Positions 9,071 through 50,457 of a stretch of DNA of 64,000 nt are shown in pieces. Under the pieces are notes generated by a model. It ran no database searches. It had not been told where the DNA came from and saw only the letters and a list, made by a program, of their open reading frames with translations. The translations under genes and the position numbers were made by a program. Position 1 is the first letter of the stretch, and each line of letters starts with the position of its first letter. Origin of the DNA: a virus (lineage: Duplodnaviria; Caudoviricetes); the IMG/VR virus record IMGVR_UViG_3300037067_015585, positions 160,001 to 224,000 of that record. One strand, written 5' to 3'.

Positions 9071-10420
9071 CTAGCGTGCAATTCCAGCAGACATACCATG
9101 TGCGATCATTTGTAGGCCGATTGTCTGCTCGCACTGCTTGATATCCTTAGACGTACATCCAAGGAATTTCGCCATTCTGTTCTTGTGCGGAATTCCCTGA
9201 TTAACACGTGGTGTATCGGGGAATTGTTTAACAAAATCTTGATAGATTGGCCCTGTCCCAATCAATAACTGAAAAACCGCTTGGCAAGTACCGTCTGGGA
9301 GACAGTCTTGTACGTGGCCTATTATTTCGCGTGCATCCAATGTGCTTGTGTTTTCTTCCAGCATATGCTGATCCTCTAATTGTGAGATAACATCGATCGG
9401 ATCGCCATCATCGTCGCGGCGACCAACGACATTGTTTACAATTTGAACTTCCGAATTTACTGACGCTGTAAATTCAGTGTACGAAGATTGCCCTTGCATA
9501 TTGCGCACTATTATTCGGTTCGAATCAATAACAACTTCACCACCAAGGGACACTAAGTGCTCCTTAATTTCCCAAAAACGTGGATAGAAGTCAGATGGTG
9601 ATATTAGCATTGGATCACAAGTTATAACATAGCAAGAGCAATTCAATGCTAATGAGTCGTTATGTTCTGGGTATCCATTATAAGTATGAAAAGCCTTCAA
9701 ATCAGATAATAGCAGATTGATTGCGTCTGCTGCAGTCTTATCAACGGGGCCAAACAATCCAACTGTATGCTTTTGATGCTTAGTTATTGGGTTTTCTAAT
9801 AATATCTGTCTGAAATAATTCCATATAAATGAGCCAAAGAATTTCTTCAATTGCTCTGGATCATTAAGTATTCTCTCTGGGTCTTCGATTTTCGCCGCAC
9901 CATGAGTCGCTATTATGCAGCTCTTTGTTGTCGGAGGATATTTGCACTCTCTTTGGAGACGCTCGACAACAAGCATGTATTCGTCTTGTGTTAACGGCGC
10001 ATTCTCTGTAAAAGTGCTATCACAAGGATCTGATATTAAGCAGCAATTGCAGACGGGACAGAAGTCAAAACATCTATTGAATTGAGTGACTCGACCGCTT
10101 TGACTTAGGAATGAAGTACTATGGCACAAAGAGCACTCAAAGGTATAATCAGTATGATATAGAAGATGTACCAAACCACGCCAAACCGCTATTTGAAATT
10201 CCTCTTGTGCCGCATTATTACTATCTCTGTAATCTGCGGCGATTGTCGATCCTAATTGGTAGATGAATTCTTGCTTGTGTCCAGCAAGAACCTCATGTTC
10301 TCCAACAGTAATCATTAATTCTTCTATTCTGGCCCGTTCCTCTTTTGTCAGATTTTTCATCGTGACATTGGCAAGCGATCCTCGCAAGAAGACTTCCGAA
10401 AGCTGTCTTACTTTTGGCAT
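9071..10420 (-). CDS. putative sigma-factor-like protein with Zn-finger insertion
   Basis: Region-2-like AAQEEFQIAVWRGL and FFGSFIWNYFRQIL separated by CSLC/CPVC; C-terminal HTH-like KNRMAKFLGCTSKDIKQ. Confidence 0.5.
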   Translation of the reverse strand: MPKVRQLSEVFLRGSLANVTMKNLTKEERARIEELMITVGEHEVLAGHKQEFIYQLGSTIAADYRDSNNAAQEEFQIAVWRGLVHLLYHTDYTFECSLCHSTSFLSQSGRVTQFNRCFDFCPVCNCCLISDPCDSTFTENAPLTQDEYMLVVERLQRECKYPPTTKSCIIATHGAAKIEDPERILNDPEQLKKFFGSFIWNYFRQILLENPITKHQKHTVGLFGPVDKTAADAINLLLSDLKAFHTYNGYPEHNDSLALNCSCYVITCDPMLISPSDFYPRFWEIKEHLVSLGGEVVIDSNRIIVRNMQGQSSYTEFTASVNSEVQIVNNVVGRRDDDGDPIDVISQLEDQHMLEENTSTLDAREIIGHVQDCLPDGTCQAVFQLLIGTGPIYQDFVKQFPDTPRVNQGIPHKNRMAKFLGCTSKDIKQCEQTIGLQMIAHGMSAGIAR

Positions 10421-42308: not shown

Positions 42309-42382
42309 TGCGGGATGGAGCAGCCTGGTAGCTCATAAGCCTCATAAGCTTAAGATCGCTGGTTCAAATCCAGCTCCCGCCA
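42309..42382 (+). tRNA. tRNA-Met(CAT), initiator-like
   Basis: Cloverleaf; 1:72 mismatch, A11:U24, loop CTCATAA, T-arm GCTGG-TTCAAAT-CCAGC; no encoded CCA. Confidence 0.88.
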
Positions 42383-42386
42383 CTTT

Positions 42387-42460
42387 GGGCCCGTAGCTCA
42401 GTTGGTTAGAGCAGCAAACTCATAATTTGACGGTCGTTCGTCCAAGTCGAACCGGGCCTA
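42387..42460 (+). tRNA. tRNA(CAT), probably Ile2 (lysidine type)
   Basis: GGGCCCG/CGGGCCT acceptor with C4:G69, C5:G68 and A73; loop CTCATAA; atypical T-loop TCCAAGT. Confidence 0.8.
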
Positions 42461-42466
42461 CATATT

Positions 42467-42602
42467 ACATAACAATGGAACAAGAGGCACTTCTCGTAGA
42501 AAAACGGAATTAAATGGCCGTCTGTGTACCGTGAATGAGCGGGCAAGCATAGGAAGTTGTGGGTTGAAACCCCATCATAGAAAACTTGTTCTATTGTTGT
42601 GT
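42467..42602 (+). ncRNA. putative structured ncRNA downstream of the tRNA pair
   Basis: 18-bp closing helix 42467-42484/42585-42602 (G-U pairs on +), internal hairpins and a T-loop-like TGGG-TTGAAAC-CCCA. Confidence 0.5.
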
Positions 42603-42607
42603 TAGTT

Positions 42608-42856
42608 ATGTCAATCGATCTTCTTCAACGATTCGAGTGCATCGTCATCGAGGTTCGTGAGGACTGTGTTGATGTTGAGATGTATGATTTGACGAATCCA
42701 TCAAATCCAATCGAGTTTGCATCAATCTATCTATCCAAATTCGATGCCAATGACGTAAAGCTATTGTGTGAAGGTGCCGTTTTCTACTGGAATATTGGGA
42801 ACGAGACGAAAGATAGCGGGCAGATAATTCGATATTCAGAATTTGTATTTAAGTAG
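42608..42856 (+). CDS. hypothetical protein
   Basis: ORF; LQRFE...GAVFYWNIG. Confidence 0.5.
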   Translation: MSIDLLQRFECIVIEVREDCVDVEMYDLTNPSNPIEFASIYLSKFDANDVKLLCEGAVFYWNIGNETKDSGQIIRYSEFVFK

Positions 42857-43126
42857 TCCTTAGTTTCACTAACCCCATTGATAGGAAGAAAATGGCAAAA
42901 GCAAAAAGAGAAGTTAAGCCCGACCGATGTACACTGCAGAAGTGAAGTCTTTGCAACGGTAGATTCTATCGACGAAGGATATGTTAATCGTCTCAATACA
43001 AAATCTATAAAAATTTTAAAATATAAGATGTGGGCTAAAATCGGAATGCTTGATTTCTTTTCAAGCGCCAGGACTAGACAAAGCACAAGCCCATCAAGGG
43101 GCAAAAATAGAGCCAAGTAGTACTAA

Positions 43127-43199
43127 GCCGGTGTAGCTCATTTGGTAGAGCATCTGATCTGTAATCAGACGGTAGTGGGTTCAATTCCCTCCACCGGCT
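43127..43199 (+). tRNA. tRNA-Thr(TGT)
   Basis: GCCGGTG/CACCGGC acceptor, anticodon arm TCTGA-TCTGTAA-TCAGA, T-loop TTCAATT. Confidence 0.85.
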
Positions 43200-43833
43200 C
43201 ATTTTTCCAGCATTCAATCCAAGTTAATATTCTGTGTGATAGTTTATAATTACTGAATCTCAAATAACAAGTGCCGTGCGTACATCGGCGTAGTTTGTGA
43301 TTCTTTCTCACTTCAATCCTTTTTACTTCTACACCAATCTTATTCTCCCAAAATGTTCTCATTTCTTCAGGGTCTAGATCATCATATATGATGATGTTGC
43401 AATAATACCTATTATTAGAACTTAACCTATCGAAGCATCTTTTACATTTTATGATAACACTAGGATCACTATTTGCGATGCCAACCTGCGATGTCCTGTG
43501 TCCTCTAGCTATCTTCGTTCCTTCTCCCCAGTACAATCCTAAAAAGCCCATTAACTCCGGATCATTCTTAACAACTTTCCATTCTTTCTTTGCGTCATTA
43601 ATAACAGCTTCAACGGCATTATTCCATTTTTCCTCAGCACGTCTAGATGCATTCTTTGCATTATCGCGAATGCTTCGATCGATCATGCTTCGATCTGCTA
43701 TCTCTATATCTCTTGAGTATAAGCCAGCAGTTGACTTAGCACATCCAACAATTTTCACGATGCTTTTGAGACTATGCCCTTTCCGCCGTAATTCAACGAT
43801 TCTGTCTTTGAACACACTCTTTGATTCACTCAT
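43165..43833 (-). CDS. HTH plus LAGLIDADG-like endonuclease-fold protein
   Basis: N-terminal LRRKGHSLKSIVKIVGCAKST; GLYWGEGTK..IANSDP..I; GTCYL. Confidence 0.6.
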   Translation of the reverse strand: MSESKSVFKDRIVELRRKGHSLKSIVKIVGCAKSTAGLYSRDIEIADRSMIDRSIRDNAKNASRRAEEKWNNAVEAVINDAKKEWKVVKNDPELMGFLGLYWGEGTKIARGHRTSQVGIANSDPSVIIKCKRCFDRLSSNNRYYCNIIIYDDLDPEEMRTFWENKIGVEVKRIEVRKNHKLRRCTHGTCYLRFSNYKLSHRILTWIECWKNEPVEGIEPTTV

Positions 43834-43884
43834 ATTGGACCTCCGATTTTGTATTTTATCTACTTTTGGTCGTGAGTTCGAAAA

Positions 43885-44151
43885 ATGAGTAAAACTATTT
43901 GGTCTAAAGAGTGGCCGACGAATCCTGGCAGATACTGGCTGTATGGCTGGACGTCAAATTACTTCAAAAGCAAAAACAAAAATAAGCCAGAGCTGATATA
44001 CGTCGATGTTCGTGAAATAGGAACAGAAAAAACATCATCATTAGCCTTTATATGTAAAGGCGGGTTCATCTATAAGAGAGATGGTGCTGACGGCTTATGG
44101 GCACCAATTGATCTGCCAGAATTACCACCAGAGCAAGAATTATGTATGTAA
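43885..44151 (+). CDS. hypothetical protein
   Basis: WSKEWPT.PG.YW motif. Confidence 0.55.
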   Translation: MSKTIWSKEWPTNPGRYWLYGWTSNYFKSKNKNKPELIYVDVREIGTEKTSSLAFICKGGFIYKRDGADGLWAPIDLPELPPEQELCM

Positions 44152-44459
44152 TATGTTGGTCCGATGGCAATGGCAGAGAATTTAAGGCACAGACAGAAGA
44201 CGTCTATAGTGCTTGGGAAATCTACTGGTATGTTAAGCACGAAGCTGAAATCTCCGTACCAAAATTCAATATTTGGATATCTATTTATAGAATAGTAAAT
44301 ACGAACGACAGCCCAATTCATGTTGATCCAAGACAAGGAATCACAGATGACGGCAATTTACATCCGATGGCAAAAGGCAAATCGCCAAAAATCGTCATGA
44401 AAATAGGATTAGACGAGCCATTGCCATGCAATTATATAAACATGTCTTTCGTGCTATAA
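44142..44459 (+). CDS. hypothetical protein
   Basis: ORF. Confidence 0.5.
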   Translation: MYVICWSDGNGREFKAQTEDVYSAWEIYWYVKHEAEISVPKFNIWISIYRIVNTNDSPIHVDPRQGITDDGNLHPMAKGKSPKIVMKIGLDEPLPCNYINMSFVL

Positions 44460-44460
44460 T
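44432..44460 (+). promoter_or_regulatory. class I promoter
   Basis: TTATAT-17 bp-TATAAT ending TCGTGCTATAAT. Confidence 0.65.
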
Positions 44461-44775
44461 ATGGCAGAAACACCCTTTGCAATATACCAAAATAAAGATG
44501 GCCGAGATGAATTCTTTGTCGAGTTGCGATACTTAATGTCGATATTGACGGCCACATTGGAAGGGTTTACCGAAGAAATAGTCACTTTTCCAGAGAGTAA
44601 AGGAAAAACATTATACATCCCGATCGATCTTGCTATCGCGTGGATTGAAAAAGAAATGGATGATGATCCACAATGCCTAGAGGGCAAAGGTTTAGAGGTC
44701 GAGTGTTCGTTGAAGATAGCAAAAGAAAAGTTCGAATCGGAGTGTGTAGATGGCAAGTATACCGGATGTCATTAA
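44461..44775 (+). CDS. hypothetical protein
   Basis: ORF. Confidence 0.5.
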   Translation: MAETPFAIYQNKDGRDEFFVELRYLMSILTATLEGFTEEIVTFPESKGKTLYIPIDLAIAWIEKEMDDDPQCLEGKGLEVECSLKIAKEKFESECVDGKYTGCH

Positions 44776-45031
44776 TGGTGCGTTTGAGTTACTAGGCGGT
44801 TTTATGATCGCCAAAAACTGTTGGAATCTTCACCGAGATAAAGAGTTAAAGGGCGTCAGTCTATTACCGATGACGTTCTTTAACTTGTGGGGATTTTGGA
44901 ACCTGTACTTTTATCCGCATTACGACGCTTGGTGGAGTTTCGCTGGTGCTCTCGGAATAGTTATCGCTAATACGACGTGGGTCATTCAAGCAATATATTA
45001 CATCCACAAAAATGAACATAAGACAGGCTAG
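44750..45031 (+). CDS. PQ-loop/SemiSWEET-like small membrane protein
   Basis: Three TM segments; KELKGVS, WGFWNLYFYP. Confidence 0.6.
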   Translation: MASIPDVINGAFELLGGFMIAKNCWNLHRDKELKGVSLLPMTFFNLWGFWNLYFYPHYDAWWSFAGALGIVIANTTWVIQAIYYIHKNEHKTG

Positions 45032-45445
45032 AAAAATAGTTGGCTCTGGTAGCAAACAACACAAGCATATTACAAAGACGTCCAATGGGACATTTTTGAA
45101 GGCACGAAGAGTTAAGCATAGCCATACGTCCCGCTACTATAAAGTACACAGTCAGTGGCCGACAATCAACGGATATGTTGTTCTGCTTGGCGGCGCATCT
45201 ATCAGAGTTGATATGTATGCGCTTCTTGGTGGCGACGGTCCTGCACTTGAAGAATTCAAGAGGACCCACTAATATGGTTGGTTATACAGTACACTCACTT
45301 CTCGATCCGACTTCGATGTGTTCTAATCCACGTAATTTCATCGATACGCCGACAAAAGACGGACGTATTCGAACCACCTGCAAAGTCTGTGGTGATTTTA
45401 TTGGCTACAGACCGATAGTCGAAGAAACAAAGAAACGAGGAAAAA

Positions 45446-46003
45446 ATGGCAAAAAAGTCTAAGGCGAAACGCTCCGATACGTTCAAACGTGGGGCGTATT
45501 TTGTCATGCACAGCTATCTATGCTTGCTGCTCGATACTATAACGTGTGCGGCACTCGGTGAGTGCATTACCAGTAGCAATACGGATAGTGATGCTCTTCT
45601 AGCGTTTGGTACTCAGCTTAACAAGTTCAAGAGCACCAGTAAGCAGCAAATGAAAGATGACAAGCGCATTAAATGCAAGAGAATTGACCCTGAAATCATG
45701 GAAGAACTCGAACGAATAAATAAGACCGCGTTCCTGAGGATCGGATGCCTTAACGAATATACTACACCAATCTTACTGGACGAAGACTTCTGCATCGTTC
45801 TTGGCAAATTCATCGAAGCGAATGGTAGTGATAATGCGAGCATTAGGAGAATCGGACGCCGGTTACTCAAAGCCAAAGAATACAATGTGAAGCGCACCAT
45901 TAAATGGGTGAAGGCCAGAAGGAAGAATGGCGAATCATTTAAACACATCAGTAAAGAGCTTGGGATTTCAGTTTCGACCGCATCGAAATATAGCAAGCTA
46001 TAA
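45446..46003 (+). CDS. protein with C-terminal HTH
   Basis: [21 protein letters not shown]. Confidence 0.65.
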
Positions 46004-46030
46004 ACAAATCAATAATAGACAAAGAAGCAA

Positions 46031-46402
46031 ATGACCGACATAGACGATGAATTTATGGAATGCAAGGAATGTAGTAAAAAGCCTGGTACACCGATACTGT
46101 GCAAGAGTTGTCAACACAACCGTGTCTTAATTGAAATATTGCAAGAAAAGGTCAATCATATGTCAATCGACAATCATCCAAATTTTCATGCTTCAAACTT
46201 CGCAGTCCACATAACAGCGGCTTTTTATGAGTCACTGCGTGGAGGTGCGACCGCGAAAAACACACCGGATATATCAAACGAAGTGATCGAATTCATATGT
46301 AAAATCGAGGATATGGTCGATCGGGCAGTAGAGTCGGCAGACGCACGCCCATTAAAGGGGTATGCCGAAAGGCGTGAGATACACGATAAGGATGTAAAAT
46401 AG
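46031..46402 (+). CDS. hypothetical protein
   Basis: CKEC..LCKSC. Confidence 0.5.
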   Translation: MTDIDDEFMECKECSKKPGTPILCKSCQHNRVLIEILQEKVNHMSIDNHPNFHASNFAVHITAAFYESLRGGATAKNTPDISNEVIEFICKIEDMVDRAVESADARPLKGYAERREIHDKDVK

Positions 46403-46627
46403 TGTTAAGCAGAGAAGACATTGATGCTCGCATGGAAGCATATGACGAAGCGATTGGACATTTAGATCAGATAATGGATATACCGCCAAATCTTCCGCTT
46501 GATGAACAAGGTCAAGCAGTACGTGAGCGAAATCAACGAAGATGGCTTGCAAAGCATTTGAGGAAAGAAGCTGACGATTGGTATAAGGAGATAATGAGAC
46601 GGTGTGAGATAAGAATTTAAACAAAAC

Positions 46628-46700
46628 GTGTCAGTAGCTCAATGGATCGAGCAATGGACCTCTACTCCATCGGTTGGGAGTTCGACTCTCCCCTGACACA
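46628..46700 (+). tRNA. tRNA-Arg(TCT)
   Basis: GTGTCAG/CTGACAC acceptor, GGA20 D-loop, ATGGA-CCTCTAC-TCCAT, GGGAG-TTCGACT-CTCCC. Confidence 0.83.
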
Positions 46701-46727
46701 CTTGATTAGAAGACAGTGATCTTCAAT

Positions 46728-47207
46728 ATGGTTACAGAATATCCACAAGTTATTGGTGAATTATTGCAGTTACTCAATTGCACATTAGACTTGGCGGGAT
46801 GCCGTCAAGCGATGGAAATGATTCATTCGAGAGAAGCTACGCAGATCGTAATCAAGGGCGGATCTTTTGCTGGTTGCTATGATAGCGAAGAGATTGACCG
46901 GCAAATCGGAAACGCCGTTTTGCAGCAATATCCACAATTAAAACCATTGGTAGTTGGTTTGAAAGAGGAGGGTAGCGGATTTTATGGTATTGCTGCTTGG
47001 TTAAATGATTTTGTGGAGAGCATTGCTCTTTTGAGCGGCAATAGGCCACTTCCAACAGACAAATTCTCATTCGTTAAGGGTGAAAAAGGTCATGGAATCA
47101 TCTTTTTCGAAGCCGGATATTATTCGATTATGTTGAAAGATCCGAACAGGATTTTAACATACCAAACTGCTTTCGATGCGGCATTAGATGGTTGGAGCAT
47201 AGACTAA
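46728..47207 (+). CDS. hypothetical protein
   Basis: ORF. Confidence 0.5.
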   Translation: MVTEYPQVIGELLQLLNCTLDLAGCRQAMEMIHSREATQIVIKGGSFAGCYDSEEIDRQIGNAVLQQYPQLKPLVVGLKEEGSGFYGIAAWLNDFVESIALLSGNRPLPTDKFSFVKGEKGHGIIFFEAGYYSIMLKDPNRILTYQTAFDAALDGWSID

Positions 47208-47550
47208 ATACATGAATATTTCTAAGGCATACTGGTATTATTGCAGTAAGCTTGGGTGTCGCTTATATTACATAGCATCACCACGATATCAAAAAAGACC
47301 TGTTATTAATGTTGAAATCTGGTGTCCTGCTGTCGATTCTCATGTAAAAATCGTTCTGGTTGGAGTTGGACAAGACGGTGCGAAAGAATTCAACTGGATG
47401 CCAACTTTCCCTGTCGATCTATATCATAGACCATACAAGCTTGATCCATACGTATCAAAAACATGTAATCAAAATATGATCGATGAATGGGAATGTTTAA
47501 TAGCGTCTAAGAAGAGAGAACTACAATAAAATGACATTTGAGGTACTATT

Positions 47551-47898
47551 ATGGAAGAATTAAGTTGTGTGGCTATTTATGGTAGTGAGTGGACAACCAG
47601 ATTCATGCAGGACGCCGACTGTTTTGAGCGGTTTAAGGTTATAGCAGAACCGGTAAAATTCGTATTGACGCTCAAACCTGATTGCTCAAAAGAGCGTGCA
47701 CTCAACGATTTGAAGATGCTGCTGGAGAAGTCTGGTAATCGTGTCGTTGCGATATTTGCACCAAACGTCAAAGAAGGTGCGTATGTCGATGAATCGATCA
47801 AAGTGATTAGCAACGGTACACAATGGTGTATGTTAAAGGACGTGCTTGAAGCATATGGTTATACGGGTCAAGGCACAACTTGTGCCGTCAAAACATAA
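47551..47898 (+). CDS. hypothetical protein
   Basis: ORF with a GAGG RBS. Confidence 0.55.
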   Translation: MEELSCVAIYGSEWTTRFMQDADCFERFKVIAEPVKFVLTLKPDCSKERALNDLKMLLEKSGNRVVAIFAPNVKEGAYVDESIKVISNGTQWCMLKDVLEAYGYTGQGTTCAVKT

Positions 47899-48233
47899 AA
47901 TGGACAGTTGGCCGAGTGGATTATGGCTGCAGTCTTGAAAATTGCCGTAGGTGAAAGCCTACCGGGTGTTCGAATCACCCACTGTCCGCTTAAGAAAGAC
48001 ATTATGAAAGATTCTGTTTATCGGACGAGAACACGATTTAAGGTATTTTTTGAACGCACTGACTCTCCGCATTGCGAAGAAGCAATGAATAAGTTGCTGG
48101 AGCGCGTTGATGATTGGGCATCAGAAGGTAATAAAACTGTTCTGGCATGGCAATGGAAGCATAAAGTCGAAAACATGGGGAAACAGTTATATGTTGACAT
48201 TGAGGTCATATATAGTGAAATCATCGAAGAGAG

Positions 48234-48267: not shown

Positions 48268-48849
48268 ATGATCAAATCTGTCGAATTCAAAGTCGATTGG
48301 CGAACATTCAAGGCTGGCGATCGGTTTGAATTTACCCCTGGTATAAATCTTCTAGTGGGGGATCAGGGAGCCGGAAAGAGTTCTCTAATAACTCTGTTCA
48401 AATGGGCACTAAATGATAATAAGGAATTTGAAAGAATTGCCCATATATCGGTCGAAGGCAAGATACAGTTACGCCTATTCGACTTTGAAGCAGATAATCC
48501 AAGAACAAGAAGCTATTGTCAGCACGCAGCGGATGTGTATATGAGATTCCAGGCCCACGGCAATTGCGTTCTGGCCATACTTGACGTACTTGGCGAGGAA
48601 ATAGATACGGTCAAAGCGTTTGTACTCGATGAACCAGATATGGCTCTGAGTATCAGATCGATAAATAAATTAGTAGGTATTTTAAAATCCACAAAGCATC
48701 AGGTCATATCATCAGCGCACAATCCACTATTAATCCAGTCGTTCGATAATGTTTTGTCGATAGAGCATAAAAAGTGGATGAAGTCGAAAGAATTTATTGA
48801 AAGTCAGATGACAGATGGCGAAGAAGCGCAAACCGACAGCAAAACCTAA
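48268..48849 (+). CDS. ABC/AAA-type ATPase
   Basis: GDQGAGKS, AHG, VLDEPD, SAH. Confidence 0.85.
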   Translation: MIKSVEFKVDWRTFKAGDRFEFTPGINLLVGDQGAGKSSLITLFKWALNDNKEFERIAHISVEGKIQLRLFDFEADNPRTRSYCQHAADVYMRFQAHGNCVLAILDVLGEEIDTVKAFVLDEPDMALSIRSINKLVGILKSTKHQVISSAHNPLLIQSFDNVLSIEHKKWMKSKEFIESQMTDGEEAQTDSKT

Positions 48850-49120
48850 ACTTTCTTCTGGCTCATTTAGTTCATTCAAACAAACATTCTCGTTCGATCT
48901 AGATTCCGTCGTGTTTATGTCTGTGTTGGGTTGGATGATAAGAAAGGAAATCGAGCAGACTTCTCTTGACATGTCGGAAAACAAGATGTGCGTTCCGAAA
49001 GATACAATTATTAAGGCGATTAAGAAGATCGGCCTTGGCAACTGGGTCAGCAAGGTAGAGAAATCTATTGCCGACTCTATAATCGAAGATGCTCGAGAAG
49101 AGCTTGCGAACAAAAAATGA
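48815..49120 (+). CDS. hypothetical protein
   Basis: ORF ending just before the repeat array. Confidence 0.5.
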   Translation: MAKKRKPTAKPKLSSGSFSSFKQTFSFDLDSVVFMSVLGWMIRKEIEQTSLDMSENKMCVPKDTIIKAIKKIGLGNWVSKVEKSIADSIIEDAREELANKK

Positions 49121-49130
49121 ATTAATATAA

Positions 49131-49575
49131 TGGTGTGGCCTGGTGAGGTCCGGCTAGGCATGGCGGGGTTTGGTGGGGTAGGGTACGGTCAGGTCTGGGT
49201 GCCAATGGCACATTTACAAATCAAGAGCAATGTGGTGAGGTGAGGTGAGGTATGGTGTGGCGCGGTGCGGTGTGGCCTGGTGCGGTCGGGCCTGGCGAGG
49301 TGCGGTAAGGTTTGGGTGCCAATGGCACATTTACAAATCAATACTAGTGATATGGCTAGGCGAGGCGCGGTCTGGTAAGGTAAGGTCTGGTGCGGTGCGG
49401 TGTGGCGTGGTAAGGTTTGGGTGCCAATGGCACATTTATAAATCAAGAGTGATGGCCGGGCGAGGTGCGGTGTGGTTTGGTCGGGTCAGGTCTGGTGTCG
49501 TGCGGTTTGGTGTGGTAAGGTAAGGTGTGGTAAGGTTTGGGTGCCAATGGCACATTTACAAATCAATACTAGTGA
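49131..49575 (+). repeat. array of four 28-bp repeats, each preceded by an in-phase GGYNN pentamer tract
   Basis: gggtgccaatggcacatttacaaatcaa at 49197, 49314, 49419 (one C>T) and 49539; tracts of 13, 16, 13 and 17 pentamers. Confidence 0.95.
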
Positions 49576-49578
49576 ATT

Positions 49579-50457
49579 ATGAGCTTAACAATATCAATAA
49601 TCGGCAAGAATGAGGAAGATAATCTTAGTCGCTGTATCAAGTCAGTGCTTCCAATTGCTGATTTGATCGTCTACGCTGATACTGGTAGTACTGATTCGTC
49701 AATTGAAATTGCTGGATCACTCGGATGTACTATTCGGAACATCAAATTTGAAGATTTTGCACAAGCACGCAACGACGCGAAGGAAGGCATTCCTGATGAC
49801 TGGATCTTGCAAATCGACGCCGACGAAGTGTTATTGAATGCCGAAAAACTGCTACCATGCCTCGAATCAGATTATTATGAGGCATATCTGTCATCGCAAG
49901 AACATCTAATGATCGGTGGCAACAAAACATCGATCGCTATGCGATTGTTTAGAAATCGTGAACATTATAAGTATGTTGGATGCATTCACGAAATGCCAGA
50001 GGATATGAATGCAAGTGGTCCTGACAAGGCCATCTCACCATATATGTTCACGAAGGATTGGGGGTTCGCACATTATGGATGTGTTGACGAACCGCTGCGG
50101 CGAGTGAAAGTATCTGAGCGTAATCTAAAACTATTAATCAAGGATCTGCATGTTAATCCATATAGGTCTTATAATAAATACTTGATGATACGCGATTACC
50201 TCAATATCTATAAATGGAGAACAGAAGCGAACGGATTTAGGTGTAAGTTTGGATCTATCGAGCACAACCTTTTGTGTGCAGTAATAAGAGACTACGACAA
50301 ATACAAAAAAGACATATTATCGCGTTATCGTGATCTAGCAAACGAAGTTTTTGAATCAGCCCAATCTGTGCTATCACAACAGGATTATCAATATATTGAA
50401 ACGAATATGTCGCCAATCGAATTGCTATCATTAGGGTTGAGTGATGCCAGCGCATAA
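49579..50457 (+). CDS. glycosyltransferase family 2
   Basis: IIGKNEE, DTGSTD, FAQARN, WILQIDADE, IHE, HYG. Confidence 0.9.
   Translation: MSLTISIIGKNEEDNLSRCIKSVLPIADLIVYADTGSTDSSIEIAGSLGCTIRNIKFEDFAQARNDAKEGIPDDWILQIDADEVLLNAEKLLPCLESDYYEAYLSSQEHLMIGGNKTSIAMRLFRNREHYKYVGCIHEMPEDMNASGPDKAISPYMFTKDWGFAHYGCVDEPLRRVKVSERNLKLLIKDLHVNPYRSYNKYLMIRDYLNIYKWRTEANGFRCKFGSIEHNLLCAVIRDYDKYKKDILSRYRDLANEVFESAQSVLSQQDYQYIETNMSPIELLSLGLSDASA

What the first reader, a model, noticed from the sequence alone, without database searches (positions are those of the whole stretch)
49131..49575. CRISPR-like array whose spacers are variable, perfectly phased GGYNN pentamer tracts
Seen: four copies of a 28-bp repeat containing the palindrome GTGCCA-A-TGGCAC, spaced 117, 105 and 120 bp apart. 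Each is preceded by 13, 16, 13 or 17 pentamers. GG is invariant (one CG exception in 59), position 3 is always C or T, positions 4-5 vary, and no indel breaks the phase. The repeat tails alternate gag.../tactagtga (A-B-A-B). The tract is strongly G-skewed in an AT-rich genome. Simple slippage would homogenise the units, yet they differ while the phase is kept. Known: GG-N3 runs can form two-tier G-quadruplexes. Inference: a functional ssDNA/RNA element, such as processed G4 small RNAs, a protein sponge, an origin or packaging signal, or the product of iterative templated synthesis.
Basis: partly seen in the sequence, partly recalled or inferred. Interest (0 to 1): 0.8.

Follow-up and report, generated by a model that had tools for sequence, protein, structure and literature searches.

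The report
Phage VIPR guide-RNA array (known kind)
The odd five-base-periodic repeats are genes for four guide RNAs of a VIPR system, a CRISPR-like RNA-guided DNA-silencing system of phages first described in 2026 preprints, carried here by an uncultivated giant phage, so the feature is real but already explained.

Summary
Window 49132-49578 (+) holds four units of 13, 16, 13 and 17 phased GGYNN pentamers. Each unit ends in a conserved 35-40-nt tail with the hairpin GUGCC-AAU-GGCAC.

This is the published anatomy of vrRNAs, the guide RNAs of VIPR systems (bioRxiv 10.64898/2026.04.26.720920 and .720927). One Vipr (RAMP) protomer holds each GGY. The NN dinucleotides read double-stranded DNA, skipping every third base.

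The same 234-kb phage record holds a second array at its very end, next to a vap1-like gene. No vipr gene lies in the record, which is 64% complete and breaks off inside that array. In a 388-kb relative and in two short contigs with the identical tail, vipr sits directly upstream of the array.

Across about 60 metagenomic relatives the tail hairpin keeps its loop and swaps its stem by compensatory changes. It lacks the pseudoknot of the SUSP1 type.

No natural target could be shown.

This scan has found VIPR arrays before on other DNA. The verdict is a new member of a known kind. Its minor novelties are a giant-phage host, a second array 24 kb from the main locus, a hairpin-only tail and the gene order vipr, array, vap1.

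The parts
49104..49131 (+). Sigma-70-like promoter candidate TTGCGA-16-TATAAT, ending one base before the first pentamer. A lead only.
   Evidence: 10 of 12 matches. The region has 2 such sites against 1.8 expected from shuffles, so it is not beyond chance.
49132..49196 (+). vrRNA 1 guide tract, 13 GGYNN units (NN = GT CT GA CC TA AT GG TT GG AG AC CA CT).
   Evidence: A strain variant changes only Y and NN positions.
49197..49233 (+). vrRNA 1 tail, type A (…AATCAAGAGCAATGT): GG, then a 5-bp stem with a 3-nt loop (hairpin GUGCC-AAU-GGCAC at 49199-49211), then the AU-rich stretch AUUUACAAAUCAAGAG.
   Evidence: the hairpin is the only pairing in the centroid fold. Covariation across relatives.
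49234..49313 (+). vrRNA 2 guide tract, 16 units.
49314..49353 (+). vrRNA 2 tail, type B (…AATCAATACTAGTGATAT), hairpin at 49316-49328.
49354..49418 (+). vrRNA 3 guide tract, 13 units.
49419..49453 (+). vrRNA 3 tail, type A, hairpin at 49421-49433.
49454..49538 (+). vrRNA 4 guide tract, 17 units, holding the single GG exception (CGTGC at 49499).
49539..49578 (+). vrRNA 4 tail, type B, hairpin at 49541-49553. It runs up to the ATG of the next gene.
48268..49120 (+). Context only: two upstream genes on the same strand, a 193-aa P-loop ATPase (AAA_21/AAA_23) and an overlapping 101-aa protein without family. Not recognisable VIPR components.
49579..50457 (+). Context only: downstream family-2 glycosyltransferase gene on the same strand, starting directly after tail 4. 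It may be co-transcribed.

Best explanation
The locus is an array of four vrRNA genes of a VIPR (Viral Interference Programmable Repeat) system, carried by an uncultivated giant phage.

Mechanism, taken from the 2026 preprints and not shown here:
- Each unit is transcribed into an RNA of about 100 nt.
- Vipr, a small RAMP protein related to Cas7, polymerises along the tract, one protomer per pentamer. It flips out and holds each GGY.
- The NN dinucleotides are presented to pair with double-stranded target DNA in which every third base is skipped.
- The 3' tail hairpin caps the filament.
- Binding silences transcription of the target, usually a gene of a competing phage or satellite.

What is shown here is the sequence anatomy, its conservation pattern and its genetic company.

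What is inferred:
- The four RNAs are made and loaded.
- The vipr gene of this phage lies just beyond the end of the incomplete record, upstream of the second array.
- Array 1 is a second, distant guide store serving the same Vipr protein.
For: 1. Anatomy. The tracts have 13-17 phased GGY/NN units followed by a constant 35-40-nt tail. The preprint gives 9-16 units plus a tail of about 40 nt.
2. Constraint pattern. NN is hypervariable between units and between relatives. A natural strain variant changes only Y (C>T) and NN positions, never GG.
3. Company in other viruses. Of about 120 viral contigs that hold (GGYNN)10, 84 encode one family of roughly 200-aa proteins within 2.5 kb.
4. That family is Vipr.
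   - A profile of it matches the PDB chain 36pp_D, 'SUSP1 Vipr protein', at E 2.4e-17 over the full length. The residues aligned with H17 and with the G-loop D-W-R are kept.
   - It matches phrog_4652, the family of the Felixounavirus Vipr.
   - A model with pLDDT 95 finds Csm3/Cas7 RAMPs first.
5. Same genome. A second array with the same tail lies at G000 233,960-234,376 (-). It has at least 4 full units plus part of another and is cut by the contig end. It is followed by a 171-aa gene that is 41% identical to the gene after the array of the 388-kb relative. The family of that gene matches Felixounavirus vap1 (hhalign probability 93%, E 3.5e-7; phrog_5926).
6. Relatives with the identical tail carry vipr directly upstream of the array. 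These are G001 (388 kb, 99% complete) and the contigs L217/L218.
7. Tail hairpin. Across about 60 metagenomic loci of this Vipr clade the stem varies by compensatory changes while the AAU/UAU loop stays.
8. No self-targeting above shuffled guides, as the preprints report for real systems.
9. Whole units do not fold better than shuffles (z 0.8, 0.9, -0.1, -1.4). This fits a tract held open by protein.
Against: - No vipr gene is present in the 234-kb record, by profile, tblastn or six-frame search. Its presence rests on synteny and on the record being 64% complete.
- No RNA data exist for this phage, so expression, unit boundaries and processing are untested.
- No natural target was found for any guide.
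- The tail cannot form the pseudoknot described for the SUSP1 clade, because its loop has only 3 nt.
- The covariation set was picked by requiring a 5-bp stem, so its 100% pairing is by construction. Only the diversity of stems at a fixed place counts as evidence.
Confidence: 0.85

Rival explanations
1. Solo (orphan) vrRNA arrays in a phage that truly lacks vipr. The guides would then be loaded into the Vipr of a co-infecting phage or prophage, to redirect or disarm it. This has been described for satellites and for VIPR-null Felixounavirus relatives.
For: - No vipr in 234 kb.
- Array 1 has no VIPR gene within several kb.
- Such orphan vrRNAs are documented.
Against: - The record is only 64% complete and ends inside array 2.
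- The vap1-like gene is retained next to array 2, whereas the described VIPR-null phages lost vipr and vap1 together.
- The two nearest relatives with the identical tail both have vipr immediately upstream of the array.
Confidence: 0.12
2. A structural nucleic-acid element that acts without a guide function: a two-tier G-quadruplex RNA or DNA, a replication origin, a packaging signal or a protein sponge.
For: GG every 5 nt could in principle form two-tetrad quadruplexes. The local GC skew is the strongest in the window.
Against: - A quadruplex needs neither a pyrimidine at position 3, nor a strict 5-nt phase, nor a conserved hairpin tail.
- The same tracts in 84 other viral contigs go with a Vipr gene.
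- There is no turning point of cumulative skew at the site.
- There are two arrays in opposite orientation, each on the sense strand of its neighbours.
Confidence: 0.02
3. A translated Gly/Arg/Val-rich repeat protein, or an ordinary CRISPR array.
For: A 92-aa ORF overlaps part of the array. The layout of repeat plus variable segment looks like a CRISPR array.
Against: - No frame is open across the array, and unit lengths in array 2 are not multiples of 3.
- The strain differences follow the pentamer phase, not codons.
- The 'spacers' are internally periodic, unlike CRISPR spacers.
- There is no Rfam match.
Confidence: 0.01

Closest known systems
Type II VIPR system of Escherichia phage SUSP1 and related Felixounaviruses (vipr + vap1 + vrRNAs). 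Sources: bioRxiv 10.64898/2026.04.26.720920, 10.64898/2026.04.26.720927 and 10.64898/2026.10.15.759431. Read here in phage tootiki, MN850647 (L132).
   Same: - GGY/NN pentamer tracts of similar length, each followed by a constant tail of about 40 nt that begins GGGUG…, forms a hairpin and continues …AAAAUC/ACAAAUC.
- Several vrRNAs stand in tandem on the sense strand.
- The Vipr of the nearest relatives is a full-length homologue with the H and the G-loop D-W-R kept.
- A vap1 homologue is present in this very record.
- No self-targeting.
   Different: - The tail is a bare 5-bp hairpin with a 3-nt loop and cannot form the SUSP1 pseudoknot.
- In relatives the gene order is vipr, array, vap1, instead of vrRNA, vipr, vap1, array.
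- The carrier is a giant phage (at least 234 kb; its relative has 388 kb), not an 88-kb Felixounavirus.
- There is a second array, 24 kb from the vap1-linked one here and about 210 kb away in the relative, beside the tRNA gene cluster.
- The Vipr is only about 21% identical to the Felixounavirus one.
- vipr itself is not in the record.
- The formal type could not be assigned, because the preprint's tree and tables are not held.
Phage-borne solo (orphan) vrRNAs of VIPR-null phages and satellites (bioRxiv 10.64898/2026.10.15.759431).
   Same: An array with no vipr within reach in the sequence held. The guides are hypervariable between relatives.
   Different: The described cases carry 1-2 vrRNAs at the site of a vipr-vap1 deletion. 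Here there are two arrays of at least 4 units each, vap1 is kept, and the absence of vipr is most simply a truncated contig.
Class 1 CRISPR arrays and crRNAs (Cas7 backbone filaments).
   Same: A tandem array of constant hairpin-bearing segments alternating with variable guide segments. A RAMP protein polymerises on the guide and flips bases at a fixed period. The model of the relative's Vipr matches Csm3 and type VII Cas7.
   Different: - The guide is noncontiguous: 2 reading bases in every 5.
- The period is 5 nt rather than 6.
- No cas operon or adaptation genes are known for VIPR.
- The carrier is a virus.
- According to the preprints, the target is bound in double-stranded DNA and silenced.

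Membership tests
VIPR system (vrRNA array) | Tandem GGY/NN (YNNGG) pentamers in strict phase; 9-16 units in characterised vrRNAs, at least 4 for calling. | tested here: met
   13, 16, 13 and 17 units. GG is kept in 58 of 59 and Y in 59 of 59. None expected by chance.
VIPR system (vrRNA array) | GGY conserved while NN is hypervariable. | tested here: met
   NN strings differ between all 8 units of this phage and those of relatives; the best pair is 0.75 alike over 10 units. Seven strain differences in tract 1 fall only on Y (C>T) and NN positions.
VIPR system (vrRNA array) | Invariable 3' tail with a conserved secondary structure. | tested here: met
   A constant tail of 35-40 nt. The 5-bp stem covaries over 20 distinct stems in the Vipr clade, with 4 of 5 pairs changed on both sides and a constant loop. 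Caveat: the sequences were chosen for having a stem.
VIPR system, SUSP1 clade (type II exemplar) | Pseudoknot in the tail (hairpin loop pairing with downstream bases). | tested here: not met
   The loop is AAU (3 nt) and no loop-to-downstream pairing is possible. The tootiki tail has the loop GGUAGU pairing with CUACC. This excludes the SUSP1 clade, not VIPR as a whole.
VIPR system | A vipr gene (minimal RAMP: RRM core, G-loop, thumb) at the locus. | tested here: inconclusive
   - Absent from the 234-kb record by HMM, tblastn and profile six-frame search.
- The record is 64% complete and ends inside array 2.
- In G001 and L217/L218, which have the identical tail, vipr lies directly upstream of the array.
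- That protein is a Vipr by PDB sequence match, PHROG family and fold.
VIPR system, type II-like | A vap1 accessory gene (predicted DNA-binding protein) beside the system. | tested here: met
   G000 233,383-233,898 (-), directly after array 2. It is 41% identical to the G001 gene, which matches phrog_5926, the family of tootiki vap1. The family profile against tootiki vap1 gives hhalign probability 93%, E 3.5e-7. This is remote homology only; a direct BLASTP shows nothing.
VIPR system | Transcribed into RNAs of about 100 nt that co-purify with Vipr. | not testable with these tools
   No RNA run holds the stretch. The unit lengths of 100-125 nt fit.
VIPR system | Guides match competing mobile elements by the 1-nt skip rule and do not match their own genome. 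| tested here: inconclusive
   No self match above shuffled guides (best 0.62-0.69). No match in the 388-kb relative. Exact seeds of 5 guides in IMG/VR and in species genomes gave nothing beyond chance.
CRISPR array | Identical direct repeats separated by non-periodic unique spacers, with cas genes. | tested here: not met
   The variable segments are themselves 5-nt periodic. Rfam gives no match above its thresholds in 48500-50000. Only the neighbouring genes were checked for cas genes.

The most novel reading that the evidence does not exclude
The phage uses VIPR guides against its host rather than only against rival elements, or keeps a distant array for a purpose other than serving its own Vipr.

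Guide 2 of this array reads, by the 1-nt skip rule, as the peptide I-V-A-A-V-L-A-R-L-(D/E)-A. This is the conserved C-terminal motif of an ECF-type sigma factor family in Burkholderiales. The match is 22 of 22 consecutive informative bases and 26 of 32 overall in a Trinickia genome.

If real, it would name the host group and show VIPR silencing of a host regulator by a giant phage.

Alternatively, both arrays are solo guides in a vipr-less giant phage that hijack other phages' Vipr.
Probability: 0.1. Interest if true: 0.6.

Novelty: new member of a known kind. Interest (0 to 1): 0.33.

Why it matters
VIPR is a very recent discovery: an RNA-guided DNA-binding system of viruses with a noncontiguous code, proposed as older than CRISPR. 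This locus adds no new principle. It does extend the known range in four ways.

- It shows a canonical GGY/NN system in giant phages from groundwater and landfill.
- It shows that one genome can hold two separated guide arrays, one of them beside the tRNA gene cluster.
- It shows a large clade whose guide tail is a plain covarying hairpin rather than a pseudoknot. That helps to define the minimal tail needed for loading.
- It shows, within a natural population, that selection keeps GG and the pyrimidine while NN drifts.

Tried and rejected
- DNA similarity of the 2.3-kb region to deposited phages: no match.
- Rfam on the region: only chance-level hits.
- Looking for vipr in the record, by a family HMM on ORFs and on all six frames, by tblastn with the relative's Vipr, and by profile search through the genome search: nothing.
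- Recovering the missing end.
  - The vap1-like protein is not on record elsewhere.
  - The closest Vipr cluster (P0002, 64% identical to G001's) could be fetched only as 1.5-kb contigs. Their guide units do not overlap ours, so they cannot be joined to this record.
- Expression: no RNA holder listed.
- The Logan contigs laid are short and do not bridge the whole array.
- Targets.
  - Own genome, none above shuffles.
  - Cross-targeting between this phage and G001 in both directions, none.
  - Exact seeds of guides 2, 4 and 3 in IMG/VR, none.
  - A seed of an array-2 guide that is partly shared with G001 gave 3 hits whose extension is at chance level.
  - A guide 1 seed in species genomes, none.
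  - A guide 2 seed gave 19 hits, 8 of them in one ECF sigma factor family. The extension is no better than chance for a 596-Gb search, and no other guide falls within the 8-kb stretches fetched around those hits. This is kept only as a lead.
- Promoter and terminator scan: the TATAAT-type site before unit 1 is not beyond chance, and no intrinsic terminator was found.
- Whole-unit RNA folding: no better than shuffles.
- Assigning one of the seven published VIPR types: not possible, because the preprint's supplementary tables are not held.
- An outer helix GGUUUG/CAAAUC around the hairpin appears in one fold. It is not kept in units ending GGUCU or in GC-rich relatives, so it was not claimed.

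Full report
**Observation.**
- On the + strand there are four units. Each has 13, 16, 13 or 17 pentamers of the form GG-(C/T)-N-N in unbroken phase.
- Each tract is followed by a constant segment of 35-40 nt: GG, the hairpin GTGCC-AAT-GGCAC, then ATTTACAAATCAA. This segment ends in one of two alternating variants.
- Of the 59 pentamers, 58 begin with GG and all have a pyrimidine third.
- A six-unit pattern matches 44 times, only here and only on this strand, against none in 100 shuffles.
- No reading frame stays open across the array, and Rfam has nothing.

**Where the window lies.** The window is bases 160,001-224,000 of a 234,376-bp virus record. The record is linear and estimated 64% complete.
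- The same search showed a second array on the minus strand at the very end of the record, about 233,960-234,376.
- It has four full units of 14, 13, 13 and 14 pentamers and the end of a fifth unit's tail, where the contig stops.
- One of its units carries GTACC-AAT-GGTAC, a compensatory change in the stem.
- In both arrays the G-rich strand is the sense strand of the neighbouring genes.

**What it is.**
- Earlier notes of this scan and a full-text search both led to the 2026 preprints on VIPR systems.
- I read there that vrRNAs consist of 9-16 GGY/NN repeats plus an invariable 3' tail of about 40 nt. One Vipr protomer, a minimal RAMP, binds each repeat and flips out GGY. The NN bases pair with double-stranded DNA while every third target base is skipped. 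The natural targets are competing phages and satellites.
- I tested the association independently. Of the loci with long tracts, 84 encode a protein of one family, mostly about 180-260 aa, within 2.5 kb.

**The family is Vipr.**
- A profile of the clade nearest to this phage matches the PDB chain named 'SUSP1 Vipr protein' at E 2.4e-17 over its whole length. The residue aligned with H17 and the G-loop D-W-R that hold the two guanines are kept.
- The relative's protein falls in phrog_4652, as does the Vipr of the Felixounavirus tootiki.
- Its AlphaFold model (pLDDT 95) finds Csm3 and Cas7 backbone subunits first.

**The system in this phage.**
- No vipr is found in the record by any search.
- Array 2 is followed by a 171-aa gene. 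It is 41% identical to the gene that follows the array in a 388-kb, 99% complete relative (G001). The family of that gene matches the Felixounavirus accessory protein vap1 (hhalign probability 93%, E 3.5e-7; phrog_5926).
- In G001 the order is vipr, terminator, about ten vrRNAs with the same tail, vap1-like gene.
- Two 1.5-kb contigs carry a Vipr 64% identical to G001's. They show vipr, a terminator, then vrRNAs with the identical tail, and they also break off inside the array.
- I therefore infer that this record stops in array 2 because the assembler could not pass the repeats, and that vipr lies just beyond. I put this at about 0.75. The alternative, a vipr-less phage with solo guides, is known from Felixounavirus relatives, but those lost vap1 as well.

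**The array of the finding.**
- Array 1 lies 24 kb from array 2, about 1.1 kb downstream of the last gene of a tRNA cluster.
- It sits between a small gene pair (a P-loop ATPase and an unknown protein) and a family-2 glycosyltransferase gene.
- G001 also has a second, smaller array of about three units beside a tRNA gene, about 210 kb from its vipr.
- A TTGCGA-16-TATAAT site ends one base before the first pentamer, but such sites are no more frequent here than in shuffles.
- In G001 the first unit after vipr is preceded by the distal half of a tail (…CACGTTTACGAATCAAGAG…). The AU-rich part may therefore act as a 5' leader or a processing signal for the next unit. This is inference only.

**The tail.**
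- In 60 metagenomic loci with a Vipr 26-59% identical to G001's (most 40-51%), tracts end in GGG, a 5-bp stem, a loop AAU or UAU, and the complementary stem. At least 20 different stems occur.
- Counted on one example of each stem, four of the five pairs change on both sides, and sliding the partner destroys the pairing.
- These sequences were chosen for having a stem, so the 100% pairing is by construction. The evidence lies in the variety of stems at a fixed place with a fixed loop.
- The 3-nt loop excludes the loop-to-downstream pseudoknot of the SUSP1 clade, which I could read in phage tootiki.
- The rest of each unit does not fold better than shuffled sequence, as expected for a tract held by protein.

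**Population evidence.**
- Three public DNA runs, one groundwater and two landfill, hold parts of the stretch.
- One contig reproduces 49066-49201 exactly.
- A second strain in the same run differs at seven places inside tract 1. Four are C>T at the pyrimidine position, three lie at NN positions and none at GG.
- If differences fell at random, the chance of missing GG seven times would be about 0.03.
The contigs laid are too short to bridge the whole array.

**Targets.**
- By the published rule I scanned each guide as NN-x-NN-x… on both strands.
- Nothing in the phage's own record exceeds shuffled guides, which agrees with the preprints.
- Nothing links this phage and G001 in either direction.
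- Exact seeds of 18-22 informative bases gave no credible hit in IMG/VR or in the species genomes.
- The seed of guide 2 found 19 places, eight of them at the C-terminus of one ECF sigma factor family of Burkholderiales. The best overall match is 26 of 32, in a Trinickia genome.
- A seed with N at every third base is in effect a peptide search. The database holds 596 Gb, the extension beyond the seed is at chance level, and no other guide matches the stretches fetched around those hits. I therefore keep it only as a lead.

**Comparison and verdict.**
- The element works like, and by its defining sequence features is, a vrRNA array of a VIPR system. Its accessory gene places it nearest to the type II systems.
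- It differs from the characterised exemplars in tail structure, in gene order, in having two separated arrays and in sitting in a giant phage.
- One defining component, vipr, could not be shown in the incomplete record.
- The kind of system was published in April 2026, and this scan has met it repeatedly on other DNA.

Noticed in passing
L135:4931-6349 (-) and L135:6754-7064 (-), which is G000 about 230,930-233,063, outside the window: A 472-aa protein with a TROVE (Ro60-like) domain (E 8e-17) and a weak vWA hit lies next to two tandem YrlA-like Y RNA matches. These score 33 and 31 bits (E 7e-5 and 3e-4), below Rfam's gathering score. The module lies just downstream of the vap1-like gene, so this appears to be a phage-borne Ro60/Y RNA module.
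   Followed up: partly
window 42309-47989: A cluster of five tRNA genes (two Met-CAT in tandem, Thr-TGT, Arg-TCT, Ser-TGA) on the + strand ends about 1.1 kb upstream of the array. The relative G001 also has its second vrRNA array beside a tRNA gene.
   Followed up: partly
L227:2685-3485 (-) and homologues in L223, L224, L225, L230, L236, L238, L240: An ECF-type sigma factor family of Burkholderiales ends in the conserved motif F-x-F-x-G-x-R-C-D-R-I-V-A-A-V-L-A-R-L-D. Its codons match units 4-14 of guide 2 at all informative positions in some species. This is probably chance, given the size of the search.
   Followed up: partly
G000 233,980-234,354 (-) against G001 about 9,100-9,164 (+): One guide of array 2 (unit 3) and one guide of the 388-kb relative share 15 of 20 informative bases over 10 units (core AC-xA-CA-GT-AG-GT). 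All other guide pairs, apart from two short overlaps within G001, are 0.61 alike or less. This may be a guide inherited from a common ancestor, or a shared target.
   Followed up: partly
window 49152-49222: In the groundwater run the summed contig depth over the tail of unit 1 is about 20 times that of the flanks (716 against about 35). Many different vrRNA units with this same tail therefore seem to be present in that sample.
   Followed up: no
L129:1487-2167 and L217:428-1105: The short contig L217, mostly vipr and array, has 54% GC. That is well above the 47% GC of the 388-kb genome and the 40.5% of this record. It hints that the cassette moves horizontally.
   Followed up: no
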